A stretch of DNA of 35,973 nt, taken from positions 1 to 35,973 of the IMG/VR virus record IMGVR_UViG_3300014890_000016; one strand, given 5' to 3'. Position 1 is the stretch's first letter. Every line of letters starts with the position of its first letter. The position numbers and the translations under genes were made by a program. The stretch comes from a virus. Lineage: Duplodnaviria; Heunggongvirae; Uroviricota; Caudoviricetes. This document shows positions 1 through 35,973 of this stretch, piece by piece. The notes beneath the pieces were generated by a model. It made no database searches and was not told where the DNA came from. It worked only from the letters and a program-made list of their open reading frames with translations.

Positions 1-1005
1 TTAATCCCCCGTGGACACTGCGTGGACACTTACGCCACCTTTCAGCGGATTAAGGGCCACCGCATCCTGCAGGTAATCCGGTGCAAAATGTGCATACGCC
101 ATTGTTTGCTGAATGGTTGCGTGGCCAAGAATCTTCTGAAGCGCAATAATGTTTCCTCCGTTCATCACAAAATGGCTGGCGAACGTATGCCGCAGCACAT
201 GTGCAGCCTGACCTTTTGGCAAATCGGGCTTAACTCTTTTCAGCGCCAGGCAGAATTCCCGGTACTTCACCTCAAACAAGCTGCCTGTTTCTCTGGTTCT
301 GATCGCCTCACAAACCGCCTGCGAAATTGGCACCGTTCTCTTCCGGCCATTTTTGGTTTCAAGAAACGTCACTCGGTTATGAACTATCTGTTCACCACGG
401 AGCTTACAGGCTTCACTCCAGCGTGCCCCAGTGCTTAAACACAAAAGAGCAACACGCCAGTAATCGCCCTCCAATGTATCGAGCAATAACGCAACTTCCT
501 TCTGTGACAGGAACGCCATTTCTCGTGGAGATACATAAAGAATAGAAATTCCCCTTACCGGATGTTCTGCATCCCAAAGACCTATTTTTTTCAGCACGGT
601 AAACATTCCGGATAACCGATTCATGTACCTGTTAGCAGATGACGGTTTCAATCCATCAGCTATCTTTTGAGAACGCCACGCGATAATTTTCAGCTTATCA
701 AGATCCACAGCCTGCATATCAGCGCCAAGCTCATTGATTATGTTGCGCAGTTGTTTTCGGTCTTCTTCCGCCTTACGTCTGTGCTGGCCGTGATACATCC
801 ACCACAACTCAAGCAAATCATTTAGCGTTCGACGATCACGGTAGCCCTGTATATATTCCCGCTTTTCAGCGTTCGCCATGATGTAGCGTTCAGTGGCCAC
901 CGCTACCGATTTTTTGTCAAATACCTTACGCACGCGCTTTCCCTTGCGTCCGTTCGGCCTGATGTCCAGCAAATAACGACCATCTTCGAGCTTCTTAATC
1001 GACAT
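1..1005 (-). CDS. int: Tyrosine integrase, P2 Int-like
   Basis: Translation from the ATG at 1005 starts MSIKKLEDGRY (P2 Int starts MAIKKLDDGRY) and ends LNPLKGG..VHAVSTGD; GGAGGG Shine-Dalgarno upstream of that ATG. The track start at 1020 is a TTG upstream. Confidence 0.9.
   Translation of the reverse strand: MSIKKLEDGRYLLDIRPNGRKGKRVRKVFDKKSVAVATERYIMANAEKREYIQGYRDRRTLNDLLELWWMYHGQHRRKAEEDRKQLRNIINELGADMQAVDLDKLKIIAWRSQKIADGLKPSSANRYMNRLSGMFTVLKKIGLWDAEHPVRGISILYVSPREMAFLSQKEVALLLDTLEGDYWRVALLCLSTGARWSEACKLRGEQIVHNRVTFLETKNGRKRTVPISQAVCEAIRTRETGSLFEVKYREFCLALKRVKPDLPKGQAAHVLRHTFASHFVMNGGNIIALQKILGHATIQQTMAYAHFAPDYLQDAVALNPLKGGVSVHAVSTGD
8..35. repeat. Putative attL core, overlapping the 3' end of int
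   Basis: GTGGACACTGCGTGGACACTTACGC here resembles GTGGTCACTGTGTGGACATACGC at 34793..34815; the P2-type att core lies at the int 3' end (established). Confidence 0.4.
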
Positions 1006-1101
1006 AGCGAAGCCCTCCAATGAACCGCTTTACAATTTCTCCAGCTTCTTCCCAGCAACAGTCGGACCAGACAAATAACAGATCCAACCAGTTTTCTGGC
1101 C

Positions 1102-1416
1102 TCAGCGGAGTAATTTTTGGTTTGTTTCGGTTGAATCCTGATCGCCCTCCAAATTGCAGGAGCCATCATGAGAGAGAGGCGGGGCAATTTGTCCCGCAGC
1201 TTCGCCAGTTTGTCCGGTCATTAACCACAAAGTGTATTTATGAAACACAGGAATACGAATCACTCTCTCAACCAGCTCTGCTCTAGCAGGCTGATGCCCC
1301 GTTTCGTATTTCTGAATAGTGTTCAGTGGAATCCCTGTAATATCAGAGAACTGACGCCTGTTCAGCCCCTCAGCCTCCCTCATCCTCTGAAGCTTTTTTG
1401 AATAATCCATTGACAT
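1102..1416 (-). CDS. C: Immunity repressor, P2 C-like
   Basis: About 104 aa with HTH region LNRRQFSDITGIPLNTIQKYETG and the motif FHKYTLWLMTGQ...GQIAP matching P2 C (FTKYTLWFMTNQ...GQIAP). Start ambiguous between ATGs at 1410, 1416 and 1425; the 154-aa track ORF is an over-extension. Confidence 0.8.
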   Translation of the reverse strand: MSMDYSKKLQRMREAEGLNRRQFSDITGIPLNTIQKYETGHQPARAELVERVIRIPVFHKYTLWLMTGQTGEAAGQIAPPLSHDGSCNLEGDQDSTETNQKLLR

Positions 1417-1425
1417 GTTTCTCAT

Positions 1426-1537
1426 GTGAGAAATATACTCCTTTCTAAGTTGAGAAATGTTAAAACACATCGAATAGCCAAAATAAGCCCATATAAGCCA
1501 TTTTGAGCAATTCGAGCGAATTAAGGAGATTACCACA
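1426..1537. promoter_or_regulatory. C-cox divergent promoter/operator region with direct repeats
   Basis: Intergenic between divergent C and cox; direct repeats GTGAGAAAT and TTGAGAAAT about 26 bp apart, resembling the P2 arrangement of C operators as direct repeats. Confidence 0.45.
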
Positions 1538-1825
1538 ATGAGCGAATCAGAGCTTGAGGGGTTCATTCAGGTAGCACCATATCCACTTGAAGCGGTGCCA
1601 TATCAGCTATTCGCCAAGATGATTGGCCGCAAAGAATCAACCGTCAGAACCATGATTGACGCTGCAAAGCTACCAACGATTGACTTTGTAAAACCAGGTT
1701 CAGCAAAGACGCGAGCATCAGAAAACTGGGTATATCTGCCAGCATTTAACGCAGGTATGCGCAAAGCGTTTTTTGATCAGCCGAAAGAGCGCCGCGACGC
1801 ATGGTTGCTCTGGCTGGGTCTTTGA
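1538..1825 (+). CDS. cox: Cox-like excisionase / directionality factor
   Basis: 95 aa; PYQLFAKMIG..TVRTMID..KLPTIDF...ENWVYLPAFN...LLWLGL parallels P2 Cox (IPYQEFAKLIG...GEYWVYLPAWN...WLMWLGL); AAGGAG Shine-Dalgarno. Confidence 0.85.
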   Translation: MSESELEGFIQVAPYPLEAVPYQLFAKMIGRKESTVRTMIDAAKLPTIDFVKPGSAKTRASENWVYLPAFNAGMRKAFFDQPKERRDAWLLWLGL

Positions 1826-4855: not shown

Positions 4856-4975
4856 GTAATCATCATGCACACACAAAAAAACCGCTTGCCATGCCGCAAT
4901 CAGTCAGGTTACATTTCCGCTGCATCTCATAAAACGGGTGCCGGGATTGGAACCCCGCAGACTAACAGAGCGCAC

Positions 4976-4997
4976 AACCGCGCCAGCGGTTTTTTTG
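4976..4997 (+). terminator. Rho-independent terminator inside the early region
   Basis: AACCGC-gcca-GCGGTT hairpin followed by a run of seven T. Confidence 0.5.
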
Positions 4998-5175
4998 TGC
5001 GTACCGTATCGCCACGTCTTTTTCGCACACGAATTATGGTGGGGCGTACAGGGCCAGCATCAGCTGGGCCGGGTCCTCTGTTAGCCGGTAGTTCCAACCC
5101 TGTGCGTCTCACCACCCTGAGCTTGGAACCTCTGGATGGTGAGTTTTCAAAACTGACTAACAGAGAGGCCACACC

Positions 5176-5850: not shown

Positions 5851-8673
5851 ATGACGGCAGAGTACATCAGGGACTGGCAACAACCGCGCCACGCAGTGGG
5901 GCGTGAAGGAACGGGGATCCCCGCTCCTGAATCCGCGCTTTCCTCCTGGCTGGGTGCCTACCGGGTAGAGAACGAGCGCCGCCAGGAAATGGCTGATGCG
6001 GCGTTCTCCGCCACGCCGCTGGGCAACCTGATTAATAAAAGCCTGGACGCACAGGAAAAACAGGACAAAACCATCACACTGGCAGGAGACGCCAGAAAAC
6101 AGGCACGCGGCGCGGTGGGTGAAGCCATGGTCTCGCTGCGCCTGCTGCCGTCCTATCTGCGCGATCCGCTTATTCGCCACCTCTCCTTCCTGCGCAAAAA
6201 ACAGGAAGCTGATCGCCGGAAAGGCAAAAAGAGCTGGCAGGCGGAACGCTATGCACGCGGAACCCTGCGCAAAATATTCGAACGTCTGGATCGCACTGAC
6301 GGACGCTGGCTGACACCGGGTTATCGCTCCCTTGCCGGACGCGAACGCCTGGACGATTTGCTTTACCTGCCGCAGCTCAACAAACACCAGATACAGACGC
6401 TGGCCACCATGACGGCGGCGATGTTCAGCAGCACCTTCGAAAAACTCTGCGATGGCTTTGGCGCGACCGATGGCGAACTGACCATGGATGTAACGCTGAA
6501 GGCGTATCAGATGCTGGCCCGCATGGCGTTACACCTGCACATCATGCCTCCACATTATGACGCACTGACAACAGATAAAGACCGGAGGAACGAACCGGAC
6601 ACGGAGCTGCTGCCGGGCGCAATCCTTCGCCTGACCTGTGCGGAATGGTGGAAACGCAAACTGTGGCTGTTACGTTGCGAGTGGAGAGAAGAACAACTCC
6701 GCGCCGCCTGTCTGGTTTCCAGAAAAACATCACCCTATCTGAGCCAGGACGCGTTAAGCGAGTTTCGCGCACAGCGCGAGAAAACACGCGATTTCCTGAA
6801 AAGTTTCATACTGGAAAATGAAGACGGGTTCACGATTGATCTCGAGACGGTGTATTACGCGGGAGTAAGTAACCCGGTTCACCGTAAGGCAGAAATGATG
6901 GCCACCATGAAGGGGCTGGAACTTCTGGCCGAAGCCCGTGGCGACAAAGCGGTGTTTCTTACTGTCACCTGCCCGTCAAAATACCACGCCACAACGGAGA
7001 ACGGTCATCCGAATCCCAAATGGAACGGGGCCACAATGCGCGACTCCAGCGATTACCTGGTTAACACGTTTTTTGCGGCGGTCCGCAAAAAACTGAACCG
7101 CGACGGCCTGCGCTGGTATGGCATCCGCACGGTGGAGCCTCATCATGACGGCACCGTGCACTGGCATATGATGGTCTTTGCACATCCGGAAGAAATCGAC
7201 AGCATCGTGGCCATCACCCGCGATATTGCCATTCAGGAAGACCGCCACGAGCTGGGCAATGATATTACTCCGCGCTTTAAGGCGGAGTATGTCGACGGCT
7301 CAAAAGGCACACCAACCAGCTATATCGCGACCTACATCGGAAAGAACCTGGACAGCCGCGCCGTGGATGGCATCGACCCGAAAACGGGCAAGCCACGCGT
7401 TGACCACGAAACCGGAAAATCAATGGCCGAGAGTGTGGAGCGCGCCATCGGCTGGGCGCGCCTTCACCGGGTCCGCCAGTTCCAGTTCTTTGGCATCCCC
7501 TCCCGTCAGGTGTGGCGTGAACTGCGCCGCCTTGCCAGCCAGATGGCACGCAACCCGGAAGGCCCGCAACGACTGAAGGATGACGCAATGGATGCAGTGC
7601 TCGCTGCCGCTGATGCCGGGTGTTTTGCCTCCTACATTGAAAAACAGGGCGGCGTACTTGTTCCACGCAAAGACTACCTGATTCGCACCGCCTACGACCT
7701 CGCAGATGAGCTGAACGATTACGGCGAACAGAGCGTACAGATTTACGGGATCTGGTCACCACTCATCGGGGAGTCTTCCCGTGTGTGCACACATCCGGAT
7801 AACTGGAAGCTGGTAAGACGTAAACCGGAAGCGGAAGACAGCGCCCGCGAAAATGGTTTTGACCTTCAGGGCGGCCCTGCCGCCCCTTGGACTCGTGGCA
7901 ATAACTGTCCCCGTGTACAGGAAACGGACAACAACGGGACAGAACAGCCGGAAGAACGGCCAGCACCGTGGCCGCAGCTCCCTGACGGCGTTGAAGTGAA
8001 CGAATGGATGCGCTCACTGAAACGGCACGAACGCCGGGCGCTGATGCGTTCGCTTCGTGACAAACAGGCAAAAAACAGCAGTGATGAAATGCAGAGCTGG
8101 ACACAGAGCCGCAAACAACAGCGGCCTTTGCCTGATAACCACGAGTTACTCGCTAAAGAATGGCGGGAGTCTGCTGAATCTCTCGGCCTGCATATCGGTG
8201 AACAGCAGATACTGCACCTGTTACGGGGCGGCAGTCTGTACGTTGACGGCAGCATCATTGCACCGCAGGGATTTGAAATTGTGCGCAAACCGGATACCCG
8301 CCCGGACAGCCGAATCGCGCAGCTCTGGCAGCGCCTGAGCCGTAATCACGGCGTAAGCAGCACGGAGATCCGTCATAACCCGGTCGCCAGCTATCTGGCA
8401 CAGCTGGGGGCATCAGACCCCGAAGCCGCCGCACGCCTGGCATCCACACTTCAGCAGGACCAGAACCCTATGAAAACACCCGTTACCGTGCTTTCTGACA
8501 TGCTGCGCGCCATCCGTGACGCAGAGCACGCACAGAGAATCAGTGAAACCACTGAACGCGCTCGCCGCAAAGCAGACCTGCTGCGGGGTGGCCTGACCAG
8601 TGGAAACAAAAAACAGACAGAAACGGGATTCACAAATCCCGTAAATGAGCAAAAAACGCGCCGCGATATATGA
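5851..8673 (+). CDS. A: Replication initiation endonuclease, P2 gpA-like (rolling-circle HUH nickase)
   Basis: 940 aa; HUH motif region TVHWHMMVF and tyrosine motif YIATYIGKN typical of the P2 A family; about 180 aa longer at the C-terminus than P2 A. Confidence 0.9.
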   Translation: MTAEYIRDWQQPRHAVGREGTGIPAPESALSSWLGAYRVENERRQEMADAAFSATPLGNLINKSLDAQEKQDKTITLAGDARKQARGAVGEAMVSLRLLPSYLRDPLIRHLSFLRKKQEADRRKGKKSWQAERYARGTLRKIFERLDRTDGRWLTPGYRSLAGRERLDDLLYLPQLNKHQIQTLATMTAAMFSSTFEKLCDGFGATDGELTMDVTLKAYQMLARMALHLHIMPPHYDALTTDKDRRNEPDTELLPGAILRLTCAEWWKRKLWLLRCEWREEQLRAACLVSRKTSPYLSQDALSEFRAQREKTRDFLKSFILENEDGFTIDLETVYYAGVSNPVHRKAEMMATMKGLELLAEARGDKAVFLTVTCPSKYHATTENGHPNPKWNGATMRDSSDYLVNTFFAAVRKKLNRDGLRWYGIRTVEPHHDGTVHWHMMVFAHPEEIDSIVAITRDIAIQEDRHELGNDITPRFKAEYVDGSKGTPTSYIATYIGKNLDSRAVDGIDPKTGKPRVDHETGKSMAESVERAIGWARLHRVRQFQFFGIPSRQVWRELRRLASQMARNPEGPQRLKDDAMDAVLAAADAGCFASYIEKQGGVLVPRKDYLIRTAYDLADELNDYGEQSVQIYGIWSPLIGESSRVCTHPDNWKLVRRKPEAEDSARENGFDLQGGPAAPWTRGNNCPRVQETDNNGTEQPEERPAPWPQLPDGVEVNEWMRSLKRHERRALMRSLRDKQAKNSSDEMQSWTQSRKQQRPLPDNHELLAKEWRESAESLGLHIGEQQILHLLRGGSLYVDGSIIAPQGFEIVRKPDTRPDSRIAQLWQRLSRNHGVSSTEIRHNPVASYLAQLGASDPEAAARLASTLQQDQNPMKTPVTVLSDMLRAIRDAEHAQRISETTERARRKADLLRGGLTSGNKKQTETGFTNPVNEQKTRRDI

Positions 8674-8749: not shown

Positions 8750-9709
8750 ATGAAAATTTGTATCGACGACGGCTCCACCAACATCAAGCTGGCATGGACT
8801 AAGAACGGCGAACGCCGCAACGCCATCAGCCCGAACAGCTTCAAGTCGGAATGGTCTGCGCCGTTCGGTGGCACGCAGCCCGCGAACTACATGCTTGATG
8901 GCGTGCGCTATGGTTTTGATCCGGTCAGCGATCGCTTTGTCCAGACGACCGACACGCAATACCAGTACAGCGATGTGAATGTCATTGCCATTCATCACGC
9001 GCTGGTCAAATCAGGCATCACGCCACAGGAGGTGGATGTGGTTGTCACCCTGCCACTGAGCGAGTATTTCGACACAAACGCACAGCCGGACATGGCCAAC
9101 ATCAACCGCAAAAAAGCGAACGTTATGCGCCCGGTGGAGTACCAGAACGGCGAAGCATTCACTATCCGTAACGTACGGGTTATGCCTGAATCCATTCCGG
9201 CTGGCTTTAAGGCACTGGCTGACATGAGTCCGTTTGAATCCCTGCTGATTGTGGATTTGGGCGGAACCACGCTGGATGTGGCAAAGGTTCAGGGGCAACT
9301 GGCAGGTATCAGCCAGGTGTTTTGCGATCCACACGTAGGCGTTTCCCTGATGGCCGATGCAGTACTCTCGGTGATGGCCGCTAACGGTATGCGTACCAGT
9401 CACCACATCGCCAATACCATTATCGAACATCGCCATGATGAAGCCTGGCTGCGCCAGCACATCCACAATGACACGCATTACGCCAGCCTGATGGCGGTTA
9501 TTCGTGAAAAGGAAGAAACACTGAAACAACGCGTGATCCGCGCGCTGGCGGTTTTTTCGGGTTACGGGCGGGTGATGGTTGTCGGTGGAGGGGCGGAGAT
9601 TGTAGCACCCGCTATCCGCGAAGCCTGCGGAGTTAATGCGACTTTCATCGCGGACGGGGTGCCACAGTTTGCTCTGGTTAATGGGCTGTACGCAATGGAC
9701 AAGGAGTAA
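8750..9709 (+). CDS. parM: Actin-like ATPase of the ParM/StbA family
   Basis: 319 aa; MKICIDDGSTNIKLAW, ISPNSFKSEW, QYSDVNVIAIHHAL, VMPESIPAG, IVDLGGTTLD, SGYGRVMVVGGGAE and LVNGLY align along the whole length with plasmid R1 ParM as recalled. Confidence 0.85.
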   Translation: MKICIDDGSTNIKLAWTKNGERRNAISPNSFKSEWSAPFGGTQPANYMLDGVRYGFDPVSDRFVQTTDTQYQYSDVNVIAIHHALVKSGITPQEVDVVVTLPLSEYFDTNAQPDMANINRKKANVMRPVEYQNGEAFTIRNVRVMPESIPAGFKALADMSPFESLLIVDLGGTTLDVAKVQGQLAGISQVFCDPHVGVSLMADAVLSVMAANGMRTSHHIANTIIEHRHDEAWLRQHIHNDTHYASLMAVIREKEETLKQRVIRALAVFSGYGRVMVVGGGAEIVAPAIREACGVNATFIADGVPQFALVNGLYAMDKE

Positions 9710-32988: not shown

Positions 32989-33129
32989 ATGTCGCAAAAA
33001 TCGCTTACGGCCATTACGTTCTGCGTAACGGCAATCCTCATCATCTGGATGCTGCACGGTTCACTGTGTGAAATACGGATGAGCTTCTGGGGAGCGGAGT
33101 TTGCGGCGTTCTTACAGTGTAAGCAGTAA
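32989..33129 (+). CDS. hok: Hok/Gef-family type I toxin peptide (46 aa)
   Basis: MSQKSLTAITFCVTAILIIWMLHGSLCEIRMSFWGAEFAAFLQCKQ: one TM helix then the SLCEIR motif and an AAFL.CK C-terminus as in HokA/PndA; GGAG Shine-Dalgarno. Below the ORF-track cutoff. Confidence 0.7.
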   Translation: MSQKSLTAITFCVTAILIIWMLHGSLCEIRMSFWGAEFAAFLQCKQ

Positions 33130-33275: not shown

Positions 33276-33713
33276 TTATTCTTCATTTTCCTTTGACGTT
33301 ATTACCACAGTAGCCAGTTTATCAATCAGGCGCTCACACGCATCAACATCTTTGAGGTTTCTTAATTTGAGCTTTGCAGTTTTAGGCTCATCATCTCTGG
33401 TACAAAGGTGTAGCTCAACTTCAACATCATTCCTGTTTAACAACCCCATAATAACCCCTGCAAATTTTTTCGCCCGTGAGAGCAATTCGAACATAACACT
33501 AAGCATATCGGGTGCATTCGCAGAGAAGCAAGTCACGCGACCTATATCAAATCCATTATTTTGAAAATACTCCTCTATTGAAGAGGAAAGCTCTGAAGGG
33601 CATGTAATCCTGACACTTGCAAATCGGGACTGATGTAATGGTGTTCCCTTTAAATATTGCACTTGAAGCCTCCGCATTAAAACTACAGCACAAGTGAGGC
33701 CAAACAGCCCCAT
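33276..33713 (-). CDS. Hypothetical protein
   Basis: About 145-aa ORF divergent from com; start uncertain (TTG 33719, ATG 33713 or ATG 33677); no family recognised. Confidence 0.45.
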   Translation of the reverse strand: MGLFGLTCAVVLMRRLQVQYLKGTPLHQSRFASVRITCPSELSSSIEEYFQNNGFDIGRVTCFSANAPDMLSVMFELLSRAKKFAGVIMGLLNRNDVEVELHLCTRDDEPKTAKLKLRNLKDVDACERLIDKLATVVITSKENEE

Positions 33714-33732
33714 GAACAAAATAGAAAACGCA

Positions 33733-33766
33733 GATCGATAATATAAAACCGATCGATAAAATCGAT
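33733..33766. promoter_or_regulatory. Three ATCGAT palindromes, two containing GATC, in a divergent promoter region
   Basis: ATCGAT at 33733, 33752 and 33761 between the leftward ORF and the com-methylase operon. Confidence 0.35.
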
Positions 33767-33814
33767 CAATTTGTTATCATACCGGCAGCAGTAACCACAT
33801 AAGAGGTGCCGCAA

Positions 33815-34012
33815 ATGACGCAAAATGTACGATGCAAAAATTGCAACAAACTACTTGCCCGCGCCTCATTTCACTACATTGAAATAAAATGTCCGCGCTG
33901 CAAAACACTTAACCAGATAACGAGAGCCATTGAGCACCCCACACACATGAGGAGCTATGACCGTGGGGATCGCAATCCAGCACCAACCAGCACATACACC
34001 GGAACACACTAA
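33815..34012 (+). CDS. com: Com-like zinc-finger translational regulator
   Basis: MTQNVRCKNCNKLLARASFHYIEIKCPRCKTL matches Mu Com (MKSIRCKNCNKLLFKADSFDHIEIRCPRCKRH); AAGAGG Shine-Dalgarno; 3' end overlaps the methylase gene as com overlaps mom in Mu. Confidence 0.7.
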   Translation: MTQNVRCKNCNKLLARASFHYIEIKCPRCKTLNQITRAIEHPTHMRSYDRGDRNPAPTSTYTGTH

Positions 34013-34748
34013 GGTTTATCAGACTGACAATGCCACGCTCTGTCGTGGGAATGCGCTGGAAATATTGCCGCTGATTGAGCCAGAAAGCATTGACGCCTTA
34101 ATCACTGATCCGCCTTACAGTTCGGGCGCGACACATAAGGCCGGACGCACCAACCATGGTAGCCATGCAAAATATCTGAACGGCGAGAGCCTTCACCGCT
34201 TTGATGGGTTCGCGGGTGAAAACATGGACGCCCGTTCGTGGGCTTACTGGACACAATTATGGATGGCACAGGCACACCGCGCAGTCAGGCCGGGCGGTTA
34301 TGCCCTGGTATTTACTGACTGGCGACAACTACCAGCTTTAACCGATGCGTTTCAGGCCAGTGGTTTTACATGGCGCGGCATCATTGCGTGGAACAAGGGG
34401 AGGGGGTCACGAACACCACATACCGGATATTTCCGGCATCAGTGCGAATACATCGTCTGGGGCAGCAAAGGCCATTTAGATAAATCGCCTTCGGGGCCGT
34501 TCGACGGCTGCATGACGTTCCCGGTTATCCCGTCAAAGAAAATGCACCCGACCGGAAAACCAGAAGAACTAATGGCAGAACTGGTCAGGACTGTGAATAG
34601 CGGCGGAACAGTCCTTGATCCTTTTATGGGGTCAGGGACAACGGGTGTGGCTGCACTTAAAGCAGGACGCAAATTTATTGGTATAGAAACCAGTGATCAT
34701 TATTTTGATGTAGCAACACAACGGCTCAAAACGGCGATCGAACCATAA
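33957..34748 (+). CDS. DNA methyltransferase, N6-adenine/N4-cytosine class
   Basis: 263 aa; catalytic DPPY (ALITDPPYSSG) precedes the SAM-binding FMGSGTTG motif; target base not determinable from sequence. Confidence 0.85.
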   Translation: MTVGIAIQHQPAHTPEHTKVYQTDNATLCRGNALEILPLIEPESIDALITDPPYSSGATHKAGRTNHGSHAKYLNGESLHRFDGFAGENMDARSWAYWTQLWMAQAHRAVRPGGYALVFTDWRQLPALTDAFQASGFTWRGIIAWNKGRGSRTPHTGYFRHQCEYIVWGSKGHLDKSPSGPFDGCMTFPVIPSKKMHPTGKPEELMAELVRTVNSGGTVLDPFMGSGTTGVAALKAGRKFIGIETSDHYFDVATQRLKTAIEP

Positions 34749-34792
34749 GACAAAGCCCGCAATGTTGCGGGCTTACTCTACCTCTCGAAAAT

Positions 34793-34977: not shown

Positions 34978-35973
34978 ATGATACAACCTATTTCCGGCCC
35001 TCCTCCTGGGCAACCACCAGGTCAGGGAGATAACCTGCCGTCTGGCGCGGGCAATCAGCCTTTATCCAGTCAGCAACGTACTTCGCTGGAAAGCTTAATG
35101 ACGAAAGTGACCTCACTGACGCAACAACAAAGAGCAGAACTGTGGGCGGGTATCAGGCACGATATTGGTCTGTCGGGAGATTCACCGCTGCTTTCGCGTC
35201 ACTTTCCTGCCGCTGAGCATAATCTGGCGCAACGTCTGCTGGCCGCGCAAAAAAGCCATTCTGCCCGCCAGCTTTTAGCGCAATTAGGGGAGTATTTACG
35301 TCTGGGGAATAATCGTCAGGCGGTCACGGATTATATCCGTCATAACTTTGGTCAGACGCCGCTGAATCAGCTCTCACCGGAGCAATTAAAAACCATTCTA
35401 ACCCTGTTGCAGGAAGGGAAGATGGTTATTCCGCAACCTCAGCAGCGCGAGGCGACCGACCGTCCGTTATTACCGGCGGAGCACAATGCGCTCAAACAGC
35501 TGGTGACCAAACTTGCGGCGGCAACGGGAGAACCCAGCAAGCAGATCTGGCAATCGATGCTGGAACTTTCCGGGGTGAAAGATGGCGAGTTAATTCCAGC
35601 GAAACTGTTTAACCATCTGGTGACCTGGCTACAGGCGCGTCAGACGCTAAGCCAGCAAAATACGCCGACGCTTGAATCACTCCAGATGGCGCTAAAACAA
35701 CCTTTAGATGCCAGTGAACTGGCGGCGTTATCGGCATATATCCAGCAGAAATATGGCCTTTCTGCGCAATCATCGCTTTCTTCTGCCCAGGCCGAGGATA
35801 TTCTTAATCAGCTTTATCAACGGCGGGTTAAAGGGATTGATCCGCGAGATATACAACCGCTGCTTAATCCTTTTCCACCGATGATGGACACGTTGCAAAA
35901 TATGGCAACGCGTCCCGCGCTGTGGTTACTGTTAGTCGCGATTATCCTGATGCTGGTCTGGCTGGTTCGTTAA
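34978..35973 (+). CDS. flk: Flk-like flagellar regulator with C-terminal membrane anchor (chromosomal)
   Basis: 331 aa; Pro/Gln-rich N-terminus MIQPISGPPPGQPPGQ and hydrophobic tail ALWLLLVAIILMLVWLVR, as recalled for enterobacterial Flk. Confidence 0.55.
   Translation: MIQPISGPPPGQPPGQGDNLPSGAGNQPLSSQQRTSLESLMTKVTSLTQQQRAELWAGIRHDIGLSGDSPLLSRHFPAAEHNLAQRLLAAQKSHSARQLLAQLGEYLRLGNNRQAVTDYIRHNFGQTPLNQLSPEQLKTILTLLQEGKMVIPQPQQREATDRPLLPAEHNALKQLVTKLAAATGEPSKQIWQSMLELSGVKDGELIPAKLFNHLVTWLQARQTLSQQNTPTLESLQMALKQPLDASELAALSAYIQQKYGLSAQSSLSSAQAEDILNQLYQRRVKGIDPRDIQPLLNPFPPMMDTLQNMATRPALWLLLVAIILMLVWLVR

What the first reader, a model, noticed from the sequence alone, without database searches (positions are those of the whole stretch)
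33733..34748. Mu Com-like zinc finger coupled to a DNA methyltransferase
In Mu, Com activates translation of the overlapping mom gene. Here a Com homologue overlaps a conventional DPPY methyltransferase by about 56 nt, which suggests post-transcriptional gating of a prophage-encoded methylase. Three ATCGAT palindromes, two with GATC, precede the operon, recalling methylation-sensitive control of mom.
Basis: partly seen in the sequence, partly recalled or inferred. Interest (0 to 1): 0.6.

Follow-up and report, generated by a model that had tools for sequence, protein, structure and literature searches.

The report
Mu-type Com switch controlling prophage methylase

Summary
It overlaps a beta-class DPPY methyltransferase ORF (33957-34748) by 56 nt, or by 50 nt if the in-frame GUG at 33963 is the start. 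Three ATCGAT palindromes lie upstream, and all three, not two, overlap a GATC.

- The GATC triad has Mu's exact 18/13 bp spacing.
- Com is 60% identical to Mu Com.
- Positions 33922-33938 match the published bipartite Com RNA-binding motif perfectly, and it is the only match in 36 kb.
- The motif runs into a CCCCAC/GUGGGG stem (33937-33968) that buries both candidate start codons, as Mu's stem buries the mom GUG.

Across about 90 Com loci the motif forms a covarying 4-bp hairpin. Com precedes four unrelated kinds of DNA-modification gene: Mom, and beta-class, Dam-like and C5 methylases.

Two things differ from Mu. The C-activator part of Pmom is missing, and a candidate extended -10 promoter sits under the GATC triad.

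Com plus an N4/N6 methylase is already annotated in phages KS5, Smp131 and Chuche. This is therefore a new member of a known kind. Nothing has been tested experimentally, and the methylase's target sequence is unknown.

The parts
33733..33767 (.). Triad of Dam sites: GATC at 33733, 33751 and 33764, each embedded in or next to an ATCGAT. It is a candidate binding site for OxyR, the host regulator that represses Mu mom when these sites are unmethylated; the best consensus match is 33730-33766.
   Evidence: The 18/13 bp spacing is identical to the Mu Pmom triad and close to the 19/13 of agn43. The pattern is unique in the window and absent from 100 shuffles. The OxyR consensus score is 14/20, tied for the best in 36 kb, against 13 for Mu and 14 for agn43. 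The GATC positions -82, -64 and -51 are conserved in 10 of 12 distinct cassette upstream sequences, and the -51 GATC in all 12. The third ATCGAT shifts or is lost.
33753..33780 (+). Candidate sigma-70 promoter for com and the methylase: -35 TCGATA, 16-bp spacer, extended -10 TGtTATCAT. It overlaps the second and third GATC sites.
   Evidence: This is a consensus match only. Four promoter-like sites were found in the region against 3.0 expected. TTTG(T/C)TATCATA is conserved in all cassette copies. An own promoter is needed because the upstream gene is on the other strand here, and in phage Chuche a terminator-like hairpin precedes the cassette. This part is inferred.
33815..34012 (+). com: a 65-aa four-cysteine zinc-ribbon protein. 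Its ribosome-binding site is AAGAGG at 33801-33806.
   Evidence: PF10122 at 9.5e-12. It is 60% identical to Mu Com over 42 aa, E 1e-15. The cysteines at C7, C10, C26 and C29 are invariant in alignment A3.
33922..33938 (+). Predicted Com RNA target, GAGAGCCAUUGAGCACC. It forms a short hairpin with stem GAGC/GCAC, including one A-A mismatch, and loop CAUUGA.
   Evidence: It matches the SELEX bipartite motif GAGNNCC(N)2-3GAGNNCC perfectly and aligns with Mu's 19-mer target GAAUGCCUGCGAGCAUCCC (PMC6483171). It is the only match in the window on either strand, with 0.06 expected. The motif is present in nearly all of about 90 Com loci at the same place. The hairpin covaries: 95% of cells are paired against 77% when shuffled, with 49 double changes against 16, and 0 of 500 shuffles reach this.
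33937..33968 (+). Translation-inhibition hairpin. CCCCAC (33937-33942) pairs with GUGGGG (33963-33968). The loop holds AGGAG (33950-33954) and AUG 33957; GUG 33963 lies in the stem.
   Evidence: The minimum-energy fold is -14.1 to -16.3 kcal/mol, with z only -1.3. P(unpaired) is 0.03 for the AUG and 0.00 for the GUG, second lowest of 30 long ORFs, against 0.67 for com's own start. The same stem is kept in Mu and in four other enterobacterial lineages whose loops and downstream genes differ.
33957..34748 (+). Orphan beta-class DNA methyltransferase, probably acting on adenine N6. It is 263 aa from the AUG or 261 aa from GUG 33963.
   Evidence: PF01555 at 3.4e-33. It is related to M1.HpyAVI/DpnA-type solved structures, E 9e-21, and to the PADLOC type II methylase model at 1e-63, with no nuclease gene beside it. 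It is 98.5% identical to the methylase of phage Chuche. The first 19 or so residues are absent from most homologues and are encoded within com.
34753..34774 (.). GC-rich hairpin (AAGCCCGCAATGTTGCGGGCTT) just after the methylase stop, at the prophage/host junction before flk.
   Evidence: The terminator-like scan flags it on the minus strand; on the plus strand the U tail is weak. Homology with many other E. coli copies ends at 34726.

Best explanation
This is a portable 'com module' taken from the Mu mom operon and joined to a different DNA-modification gene. It sits at the att-proximal end of a P2-family prophage between pdxB and flk.

Proposed mechanism, with each step marked as shown or inferred:
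1. **Transcription (inferred).** com and the methylase are transcribed together from their own promoter in the 33720-33810 spacer. That promoter lies under three Dam sites that match Mu's OxyR/Dam switch.
   - When the sites are unmethylated, OxyR binds and blocks the promoter.
   - When they are methylated, it cannot.
   - Unlike Mu, no C-activator site is present, and the candidate promoter has an extended -10.
2. **Masked start (sequence and homology shown, function inferred).** On the mRNA, the methylase start (GUG 33963 and/or AUG 33957) is locked in the CCCCAC/GUGGGG hairpin.
3. **Com release (target motif shown, binding and activation inferred from Mu).** Com is translated from the same mRNA.
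   - It binds the small hairpin at 33922-33938, whose 3' end supplies the first two bases of the inhibitory stem.
   - This opens the stem and lets ribosomes start the methylase.
4. **Enzyme action (inferred).** The enzyme methylates DNA, most likely adenine N6 given the DPPY motif, and so protects phage DNA from restriction in the next host.
For: - **Homology to Mu.** DNA alignment with Mu and phage Chuche runs through the GATC triad, com and the hairpin. GATC spacing is identical at 18/13.
- **Com protein.** Pfam hit, and 60% identity to Mu Com.
- **Com target.** The published Com target and SELEX motif is matched perfectly, and only once in 36 kb, at the homologous site.
- **Conservation.** The motif follows the zinc finger in all 11 Com loci found through the methylase and in nearly all of about 90 Com loci overall. 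Its stem covaries.
- **Start-codon masking.**
  - The start codons are predicted to be paired, and they are among the most occluded in the window.
  - Forcing the motif single-stranded raises the fold from -16.3 to -7.7 kcal/mol.
- **Stem conserved.** The same stem with different loops and different downstream genes occurs in five enterobacterial lineages.
- **Same logic elsewhere.** In other clades the sequence 3' of the Com hairpin pairs with the downstream gene's ribosome-binding site or start region.
- **Com travels with DNA-modification genes.** It precedes Mom, beta-class, D12-class and C5 methylases.
- **Dam sites, not ATCGAT, are conserved.** The GATC positions are conserved in 10 of 12 distinct cassette copies, while the third ATCGAT shifts or is lost.
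- **OxyR match.** The consensus score equals that of the proven Mu and agn43 sites.
- **Spread.** The cassette is intact in 171 of 5426 complete E. coli genomes and in an isolated phage.
Against: - There is no experimental data for this or any Com-plus-beta-methylase cassette.
- The hairpin's folding energy is not better than shuffles (z -1.3). Its stem never varies among the close relatives, so it has no covariation support of its own.
- The window's Com hairpin has an A-A mismatch.
- The promoter is only a consensus match, at background frequency.
- The OxyR score of 14/20 is shared by one unrelated site in the window.
- Because Com is made from the same transcript as its target, the module by itself gives a delay or threshold, not an on/off signal.
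- What switches transcription on is unknown. No Mu C site and no P2 Ogr-type TGT-N12-ACA element lie in the promoter region.
- 72 of 79 related methylase loci have no Com, so the enzyme does not need it.
Confidence: 0.65

Rival explanations
1. The overlap is ordinary gene packing with translational coupling. Ribosomes finishing com unwind the hairpin and restart on the methylase. The Com protein is not needed in trans, or is a relic.
For: The methylase start lies inside com, so ribosomes translating com must pass through 33937-33968. The hairpin is not thermodynamically exceptional.
Against: The Com zinc ribbon is intact and conserved. Its specific RNA motif is kept at the right place in nearly all Com loci, and the motif's stem covaries, which passive coupling would not require. 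In Mu, by the published account cited, Com acts as an RNA-binding activator.
Confidence: 0.12
2. The ATCGAT palindromes are the methylase's own recognition sites (a ClaI-like specificity), so the enzyme regulates its own promoter by methylating it. Dam and OxyR play no part.
For: Three ATCGAT sites lie within 33 bp over the candidate promoter. The methylase's specificity is unknown.
Against: The same GATC/ATCGAT triad with the same spacing precedes Mu mom, and a close version precedes agn43. Neither has such a methylase. Among cassette copies the GATC at -51 is invariant, while the third ATCGAT moves from -54 to -50 or is lost.
Confidence: 0.06
3. Com here is a DNA-binding transcriptional regulator, as the RefSeq product name says. 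It controls the promoter rather than translation.
For: RefSeq names it 'Com family DNA-binding transcriptional regulator'. One sentence in PMC3299994 says the com-mom promoter is positively regulated by Com.
Against: Published binding work shows Com binds RNA with a defined motif, and that motif lies in the mRNA, not in the promoter. No repeat of it lies upstream of com.
Confidence: 0.03
4. The cassette is silent cargo that no longer functions in this prophage.
For: Related prophage methylases are reported as not expressed in lysogens (M.EcoGII; Hin1523 and Hia5). No activator site was found.
Against: Both ORFs, the Com motif, the stem and the GATC triad are intact and about 96-98% conserved in 171 E. 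coli genomes and in the isolated phage Chuche.
Confidence: 0.08

Closest known systems
Phage Mu com-mom operon (Dam/OxyR-controlled Pmom, Com translational activator, translation-inhibition structure)
   Same: It is homologous at DNA level. The three GATC sites have the same 18/13 spacing. The Com zinc ribbon is 60% identical. The Com RNA target sits at the same place. The CCCAC/GUGGG stem holds an in-frame GUG. com overlaps the downstream gene.
   Different: The downstream gene is a PF01555 methyltransferase, not Mom (PF25680). The stretch between the third GATC and com is 27 bp shorter, so the region aligned to Mu's T-run and TAAGAT is missing. The host phage is P2-family with an Ogr/Delta-type protein, and no Mu-type C/Mor gene appears in the sister-prophage annotation or among the window ORFs scanned. 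The hairpin loop is 20 nt rather than 11 nt and contains an extra AUG.
Burkholderia P2-like phage KS5, gp21 'Com translational regulator' plus gp20 'N-4/N-6 DNA methylase' (PMC3091744); also Stenotrophomonas P2-like phage Smp131
   Same: It is a P2-family phage with a small Com gene overlapping a roughly 250-aa PF01555 methylase. In KS5 the overlap is 23 nt by the published coordinates. In Smp131 a 'translational regulator' overlaps a 'site-specific DNA-methyltransferase'. The Smp131 methylase is 46% identical to this one and carries the Com motif.
   Different: The position in the phage genome differs: between tail genes in KS5 and after the portal gene in Smp131, against att-proximal here. 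Smp131 has GATC sites but no triad with this spacing, and the beta- and alpha-proteobacterial Com-methylase loci have no GATC within 130 bp upstream of com. None has been tested experimentally.
Mu-like prophages FluMu, Pnm1 and Hia5, and phage B3: Com plus adenine methyltransferase (PMC3299994)
   Same: A Com homologue precedes a DNA adenine methyltransferase that replaces mom, and Com-type control has been proposed for them.
   Different: By the paper's alignment with Dam and M1.DpnII, those enzymes are Dam-like. The comparable Com cargo found here, in phage UMP151, is PF02086 D12 class. The published enzymes are non-specific. This enzyme is beta-class PF01555 of unknown specificity, and the host is a P2-family phage, not a transposable one.
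agn43 (flu) Dam/OxyR phase-variation switch of E. coli
   Same: Three GATC sites spaced 19 and 13 bp apart within an OxyR-type site, with ATCGATCG cores and the same consensus score.
   Different: In agn43 the switch gives heritable ON/OFF states, by the established account. Here no such behaviour is known, and the placement over the promoter is only inferred.

Membership tests
Com family (Mu translational activator, PF10122) | Small protein with a four-cysteine zinc ribbon (CxxC ... CxxC) that matches the family profile | tested here: met
   PF10122 at 44.6 bits against a cut-off of 22.9. It is 60% identical to Mu Com. The four cysteines are invariant in A3.
Com family (Mu translational activator, PF10122) | Gene lies directly upstream of, and overlaps, a DNA-modification gene on the same strand | tested here: met
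   The overlap with a PF01555 methylase is 56 nt, or 50 nt from the GUG. The same layout holds in about 90 Com loci with four classes of downstream gene.
Com family (Mu translational activator, PF10122) | [quoted passage not shown] | tested here: met
   Positions 33922-33938 match the bipartite motif perfectly and are unique in the window. Hairpin covariation across loci is shown. The window's copy has 3 of 4 stem pairs.
Com family (Mu translational activator, PF10122) | Com binds that RNA and activates translation of the downstream gene | not testable with these tools
   This needs EMSA and reporter fusions. It is inferred from Mu only.
Mu mom-type translation-inhibition structure | Hairpin next to the Com site that pairs the start codon of the downstream gene | tested here: inconclusive
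   The stem CCCCAC/GUGGGG is homologous to Mu's, and the start codons have P(unpaired) of 0.03 or less. However, the energy z-score is -1.3, and the stem never varies among the lineages that share it.
Mu Pmom transcriptional control | Three GATC sites forming a methylation-sensitive OxyR site upstream of com | tested here: inconclusive
   The sites and their spacing match Mu's exactly. The OxyR consensus score is 14/20, equal to known sites, but one unrelated site in the window scores the same. Binding was not tested.
Mu Pmom transcriptional control | Weak promoter dependent on the phage C activator (C site, T-run spacer) | tested here: not met
   The distance from the third GATC to com is 51 bp against 78 bp in Mu, and the region aligned to Mu's T-run and TAAGAT is deleted. 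No Mu-type C/Mor gene appears in the sister-prophage annotation or among the window ORFs scanned, whereas an Ogr/Delta-type protein does.
Beta-class N6/N4 DNA methyltransferases (PF01555) | Catalytic DPPY motif N-terminal to the AdoMet-binding FxGxG motif, plus a profile match | tested here: met
   PF01555 at 115.9 bits. DPPY is at 51-54 and FMGSG at 223-227, both in invariant columns of A2. Solved relatives include M1.HpyAVI/DpnA-type, CcrM and MboIIA.
Non-specific Dam-like methylases that replace mom (Hin1523, Hia5, Nma1821) | D12-class (alpha) fold related to Dam and M1.DpnII | tested here: not met
   The window enzyme hits PF01555, not PF02086. D12-class Com cargoes form a separate cluster.
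M.EcoGII-type non-specific prophage methylase | A 349-aa enzyme, nearly identical across E. coli prophages | tested here: not met
   M.EcoGII is 349 aa, against 263 aa here. No direct sequence comparison was run.
Type II restriction-modification system | A partner restriction endonuclease gene next to the methylase | tested here: not met
   The neighbours are com upstream and the host gene flk downstream. The ORF at 33276-33719 has no PADLOC or Pfam hit. The methylase is therefore an orphan.

The most novel reading that the evidence does not exclude
In this cassette the Dam/OxyR triad appears to sit directly over an activator-independent extended -10 promoter, rather than upstream of a C-dependent one. 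It could therefore behave like agn43: a heritable ON/OFF epigenetic switch, with Com adding a translational threshold. Lysogens would then be a mixed population in which some cells express an extra DNA methyltransferase. That would give phase-variable methylomes and phase-variable protection of progeny phage.
Probability: 0.1. Interest if true: 0.65.

Novelty: new member of a known kind. Interest (0 to 1): 0.3.

Why it matters
The case shows the Mu mom control region working as a transferable cassette. The same Com gene, RNA hairpin and start-codon mask are found in front of four unrelated DNA-modification enzymes. In E. coli the cassette has moved into P2-family prophages, which are present in about 3% of complete genomes.

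For annotation, the RefSeq name 'DNA-binding transcriptional regulator' is probably wrong, and the methylase start may be the GUG at 33963.

In practical terms, such gated orphan methylases are likely to be missed in lysogen methylomes. They could still change the restriction sensitivity of released phage.

None of this is a conceptual surprise. The idea that Com controls methylases replacing mom has been in the literature since the analyses of FluMu, B3 and KS5.

Tried and rejected
- **M.EcoGII.** I suspected this enzyme was M.EcoGII. The paper gives 349 aa and does not mention Com, so I rejected that.
- **Hia5/Hin1523 class.** I checked whether it belongs to that non-specific class. It does not, because the Pfam family differs.
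- **Specificity.** I looked for the methylase's target sequence in the literature on P2-like prophage methylomes and on Bordetella phage BPP-1 Bpm, which is 53% identical. Nothing usable was found. REBASE is not available here.
- **Original OxyR/mom paper.** PMC147061 is not held.
- **P2 late promoter.** I searched for an Ogr-type late-promoter element, TGT-N12-ACA. None lies in the promoter region.
- **Rfam.** No family covers the Com hairpin or the inhibitory stem.
- **Folding energy.** As a stand-alone test the z-scores of -1.3, and -0.6 to -1.5 for Mu's own proven structure, show that this test has no power for such short hairpins.
- **Blocking simulation for Mu.** It was uninformative, because the GUG re-paired elsewhere.
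- **Defence-system scan.** PADLOC gave only generic methylase hits.
- **Not run.** Structure prediction and the large representative-protein search would not have resolved either specificity or regulation.
Full report
**Setting**

The window is an essentially complete P2-family prophage of Escherichia coli.
- It has an integrase at 1-1020 (-), a repressor-like gene at 1102-1566 (-), and a P2 gpA-type replication nuclease at 5851-8673.
- It also has ParM-like partition genes, P2-type portal, terminase and capsid genes, tail, tail-fibre and baseplate genes, and a Hok/MokW-like toxin at 32989-33129.
- The last ORF, 34978-35973, is the host gene flk. In a sister strain the same prophage lies between pdxB and flk and encodes an Ogr/Delta-type zinc-finger protein.
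- The finding therefore sits at the extreme right end of the prophage, next to the attachment site.

**Checking the observation**

All the described features are present.
- com is 33815-34012 (+), 65 aa, preceded by AAGAGG. It hits Pfam Zn_ribbon_Com at E 9.5e-12, above the curated cut-off.
- The methyltransferase ORF is 33957-34748 (+), 263 aa. It hits PF01555 at E 3.4e-33. DPPY precedes the FMGSG AdoMet motif, which is the beta-class motif order.
- Its solved relatives are M1.HpyAVI/DpnA-type, CcrM, MboIIA and RsrI.
- The overlap is 56 nt.
- ATCGAT occurs at 33734, 33752 and 33761.

Two corrections are needed.
- All three palindromes overlap a GATC (33733, 33751, 33764), not two.
- An in-frame GUG at 33963 is better placed behind the AGGAG at 33950-33954 (8 nt) than the AUG at 33957 (2 nt).

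The total number of ATCGAT sites in the window is what chance gives. The triad GATC-N14-GATC-N9-GATC, however, occurs once and in none of 100 shuffles.

**What it is: the mom control region itself**

I fetched the right end of phage Mu and aligned it with the window and with phage Chuche. The similarity is at DNA level, not only protein level.
- Mu has GATC sites at -109, -91 and -78 from the com ATG. The window has them at -82, -64 and -51. The spacing is the same, 18 and 13 bp.
- The flanking 'ATAGAAAACG' is also shared.
- Com is 60% identical to Mu Com over 42 residues.
- After the zinc finger, the two sequences align through GCC-NNN-GAGCAYCCCAC and again at GUGGG.

The literature defines what these pieces are in Mu.
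- Dam and OxyR govern transcription from Pmom, which also needs the activator C (PMC3378877).
- Com binds a short hairpin, the native 19-mer GAAUGCCUGCGAGCAUCCC. The recognition motif is CC(N)2-3GAG in the loop, and the SELEX bipartite form is GAGNNCC(N)2-3GAGNNCC.
- That hairpin lies next to, and partly overlaps, a translation-inhibition structure whose stem contains the mom GUG start (PMC6483171).

**The Com target in the window**

Positions 33922-33938, GAGAGCCATTGAGCACC, match the bipartite SELEX motif perfectly. It is the only match on either strand of the 36-kb window, with 0.06 expected. It lies exactly where Mu's 19-mer aligns. Its last two C's are the first two bases of the CCCCAC arm of the downstream stem, just as Mu's 19-mer runs into CCCAC.

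**The masking hairpin**

A small inner helix pairs the AUG, and AGGAG is in the loop.
- In the ensemble, P(unpaired) is 0.03 for the AUG and 0.00 for the GUG. For com's own start it is 0.67.
- Among 30 long ORFs in the window, the methylase start codon is the second most occluded.
- Forcing the Com motif single-stranded, a crude stand-in for Com binding, raises the fold from -16.3 to -7.7 kcal/mol and partly frees the starts.
- The energy itself is not better than shuffled sequence (z -1.3). Mu's proven structure scores no better (z -0.6 to -1.5), so this test has little power for such short hairpins.
- Support comes from conservation instead. Mu-type, window-type and three other enterobacterial Com lineages keep the same stem around loops of different length and sequence. 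Each loop has a purine-rich ribosome-binding site, and the downstream genes are unrelated.
- In those sister lineages the stem GUG is the first in-frame start of the downstream gene. That is why I favour GUG 33963 as the ancestral start here.

**Comparative evidence**

*Search from the methylase side.* A scan of one genome per species with an alignment of methylase homologues gave 79 loci.
- Only seven have a Com gene upstream, plus one cut by a contig end. They are Salmonella, a probably misassigned 'Vagococcus' contig, Acidovorax, Verminephrobacter, Brachymonas and Azospirillum.
- All of them carry the motif at the right place.
- The enzyme family therefore mostly lives without Com, and Com has been attached in a few lineages.

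*Search from the Com side.* A scan of viral contigs with a Com alignment gave 80 more loci.
- Nearly all carry the motif about 100 nt after the com start.
- The 48 distinct motif sequences aligned (of 50 instances found) form a 4-bp stem with clear covariation. 95.3% of cells are paired against 76.7% in shuffles. There are 49 double-sided changes against 16. None of 500 shuffles reaches this, and slid controls collapse.
- One caveat: the instances were collected with a pattern that restricts two of the eight stem positions to purine or pyrimidine.
- The window's copy has one A-A mismatch in this stem.

*What Com precedes.* The downstream genes fall into Mom (PF25680, 30 loci), beta-class PF01555 (25), D12 Dam-like PF02086 (21-22) and C5 cytosine methylase PF00145 (7), plus two oddities.

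*Other clades.* The sequence just 3' of the Com hairpin is complementary to the downstream gene's ribosome-binding site or start region. One example is CCUCCUGA ... UCAGGAGG in phage UMP151, and long stems enclose the AUG in the Acidovorax loci. The same logic recurs with different sequences.

**The upstream region**

- *GATC versus ATCGAT.* The three GATC positions are kept in 10 of 12 distinct cassette upstream sequences, and the -51 GATC in all 12. The third ATCGAT shifts from -54 to -50 or is lost. The Dam site, not the ClaI-type palindrome, is therefore the conserved element. This argues against the idea that the palindromes are the methylase's own target.
- *Other hosts.* The beta- and alpha-proteobacterial versions have no GATC within 130 bp upstream of com.
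- *agn43.* The known Dam/OxyR switch of agn43 has GATC spacing of 19 and 13 bp, with similar ATCGATCG cores.
- *OxyR consensus.* Against the 37-bp OxyR consensus, window 33730-33766 scores 14/20. That ties for the best in the window, against 13 for Mu and 14 for agn43, but one unrelated site also scores 14. This part is plausible, not proven.
- *Difference from Mu.* The distance from the third GATC to com is 27 bp shorter. The segment aligned to Mu's T-run and TAAGAT is missing. No P2-type TGT-N12-ACA element is present either.
- *Candidate promoter.* The only promoter-like site on the right strand and at the right distance is TCGATA-16-TGtTATCAT (33753-33780). It overlaps the second and third GATC sites and is conserved among cassette copies. 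In Mu, the tin7 mutation that creates an extended -10 makes Pmom independent of C. This offers a rationale, but the promoter call is an inference at background frequency.

**Mechanism I commit to**

com and the methylase are co-transcribed from a promoter that OxyR can occlude when the GATC sites are unmethylated. Methylase translation is blocked by the start-codon hairpin until enough Com has accumulated to bind the 33922-33938 hairpin and open the stem. The enzyme then methylates DNA, probably adenine N6 by the DPPY rule (established knowledge of the motif classes). This is most plausibly an anti-restriction function for progeny phage.

| Status | Steps |
|---|---|
| Shown | The sequence elements and their homology and conservation |
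| Inferred | Com binding and activation, OxyR binding, the promoter, the timing of expression, the enzyme's target |

I put about 0.65 on the Com-gated translation model as a whole, and less on the OxyR part.

**Comparison with what is known, and novelty**

- Com followed by a methyltransferase in place of mom has been described for FluMu, Pnm1, Hia5 and phage B3, with Com-type control suggested (PMC3299994).
- The P2-like Burkholderia phage KS5 was annotated in 2010 with a 'Com translational regulator' overlapping an 'N-4/N-6 DNA methylase' (PMC3091744).
- The P2-like phage Smp131 has the same pair.
- Phage Chuche carries this very cassette, 98.5% identical, annotated 'gpCom control of modification' plus 'DNA methyltransferase'.
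- The cassette occurs in 183 of 5426 complete E. coli genomes.

The finding is therefore a new member of a known kind. This analysis adds four things:
- the retention of the Dam/OxyR triad without the C site;
- the perfect Com motif;
- the family-wide covariation of the Com hairpin;
- the four classes of downstream gene.

The least ordinary reading still open is an agn43-like, phase-variable methylase. I rate it at about 10%.

Noticed in passing
window 4922-4996 and 5032-5119 (+): Rfam hits above the gathering score to the isrK Hfq-binding sRNA (70 bits) and the C4 antisense RNA (77 bits). They lie side by side in the early region of this P2-family prophage, which suggests a P1/P7-type antisense immunity or anti-repressor control element.
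   Followed up: no
window 33276-33719 (-), probably 33276-33662: An ORF of unknown function (phrog_14142, E 1e-50; no Pfam, NCBIfam or PADLOC hit) is transcribed divergently from com. It is absent from phage Chuche and from most E. coli copies of the cassette, whose homology begins exactly at 33731, the first GATC. The GATC triad therefore sits in a divergent promoter region here.
   Followed up: partly
window 32989-33129 (+): A Hok/MokW-like host-killing peptide gene (phrog_251, E 1e-22) lies just upstream of the cassette, as in phage Chuche.
   Followed up: no
window 34726-34760: Homology with many other E. coli copies of the cassette stops at 34726, 22 nt before the methylase stop codon. 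Methylase variants of 263 and 268 aa exist. The attachment-site boundary therefore appears to lie in or right after the 3' end of the methylase gene.
   Followed up: partly
L005 (contig NZ_JBQPOM010000071.1, labelled Vagococcus sp.): A contig assigned to a Gram-positive genus carries an 89% identical enterobacterial com-methylase cassette, so it is probably contamination or mislabelling. In it the three GATC sites have collapsed to one, apparently by deletion between the repeated GATCGAT units.
   Followed up: no
L084 1501-2700 (Mu-like prophage inserted in an Stx1a phage); also L107, L112, L116-L119: Com with the same CCCCAC/GUGGGG stem precedes a C5 cytosine methyltransferase (PF00145, E 2e-42). 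This is a fourth enzyme class under Com control. Only two GATC sites, 13 bp apart, lie within 130 bp upstream of com.
   Followed up: partly
L126, L133, L136, L141, L143, L144, L151, L153, L161, L166, L167: These Com loci carry two Com-type hairpin motifs in tandem, 22 nt apart, before the downstream gene. This fits the suggestion in PMC6483171 that more than one Com site may be used.
   Followed up: no
L162 and L163: Here Com is followed, after a gap of about 160 nt, by a protein with weak P-loop ATPase and GNAT acetyltransferase hits rather than a known DNA-modification enzyme. L162 lacks the Com motif.
   Followed up: no
RefSeq annotation of the cassette (e.g. L001 20616-20813): The product name 'Com family DNA-binding transcriptional regulator' conflicts with the published role of Mu Com as an RNA-binding translational activator.
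   Followed up: partly
window 8750-9709 and the neighbouring ORFs: ParM-like segregation and partition genes sit inside an integrated P2-family prophage. This recalls P2-like phages that are maintained as plasmids, such as KS14 in PMC3091744.
   Followed up: no
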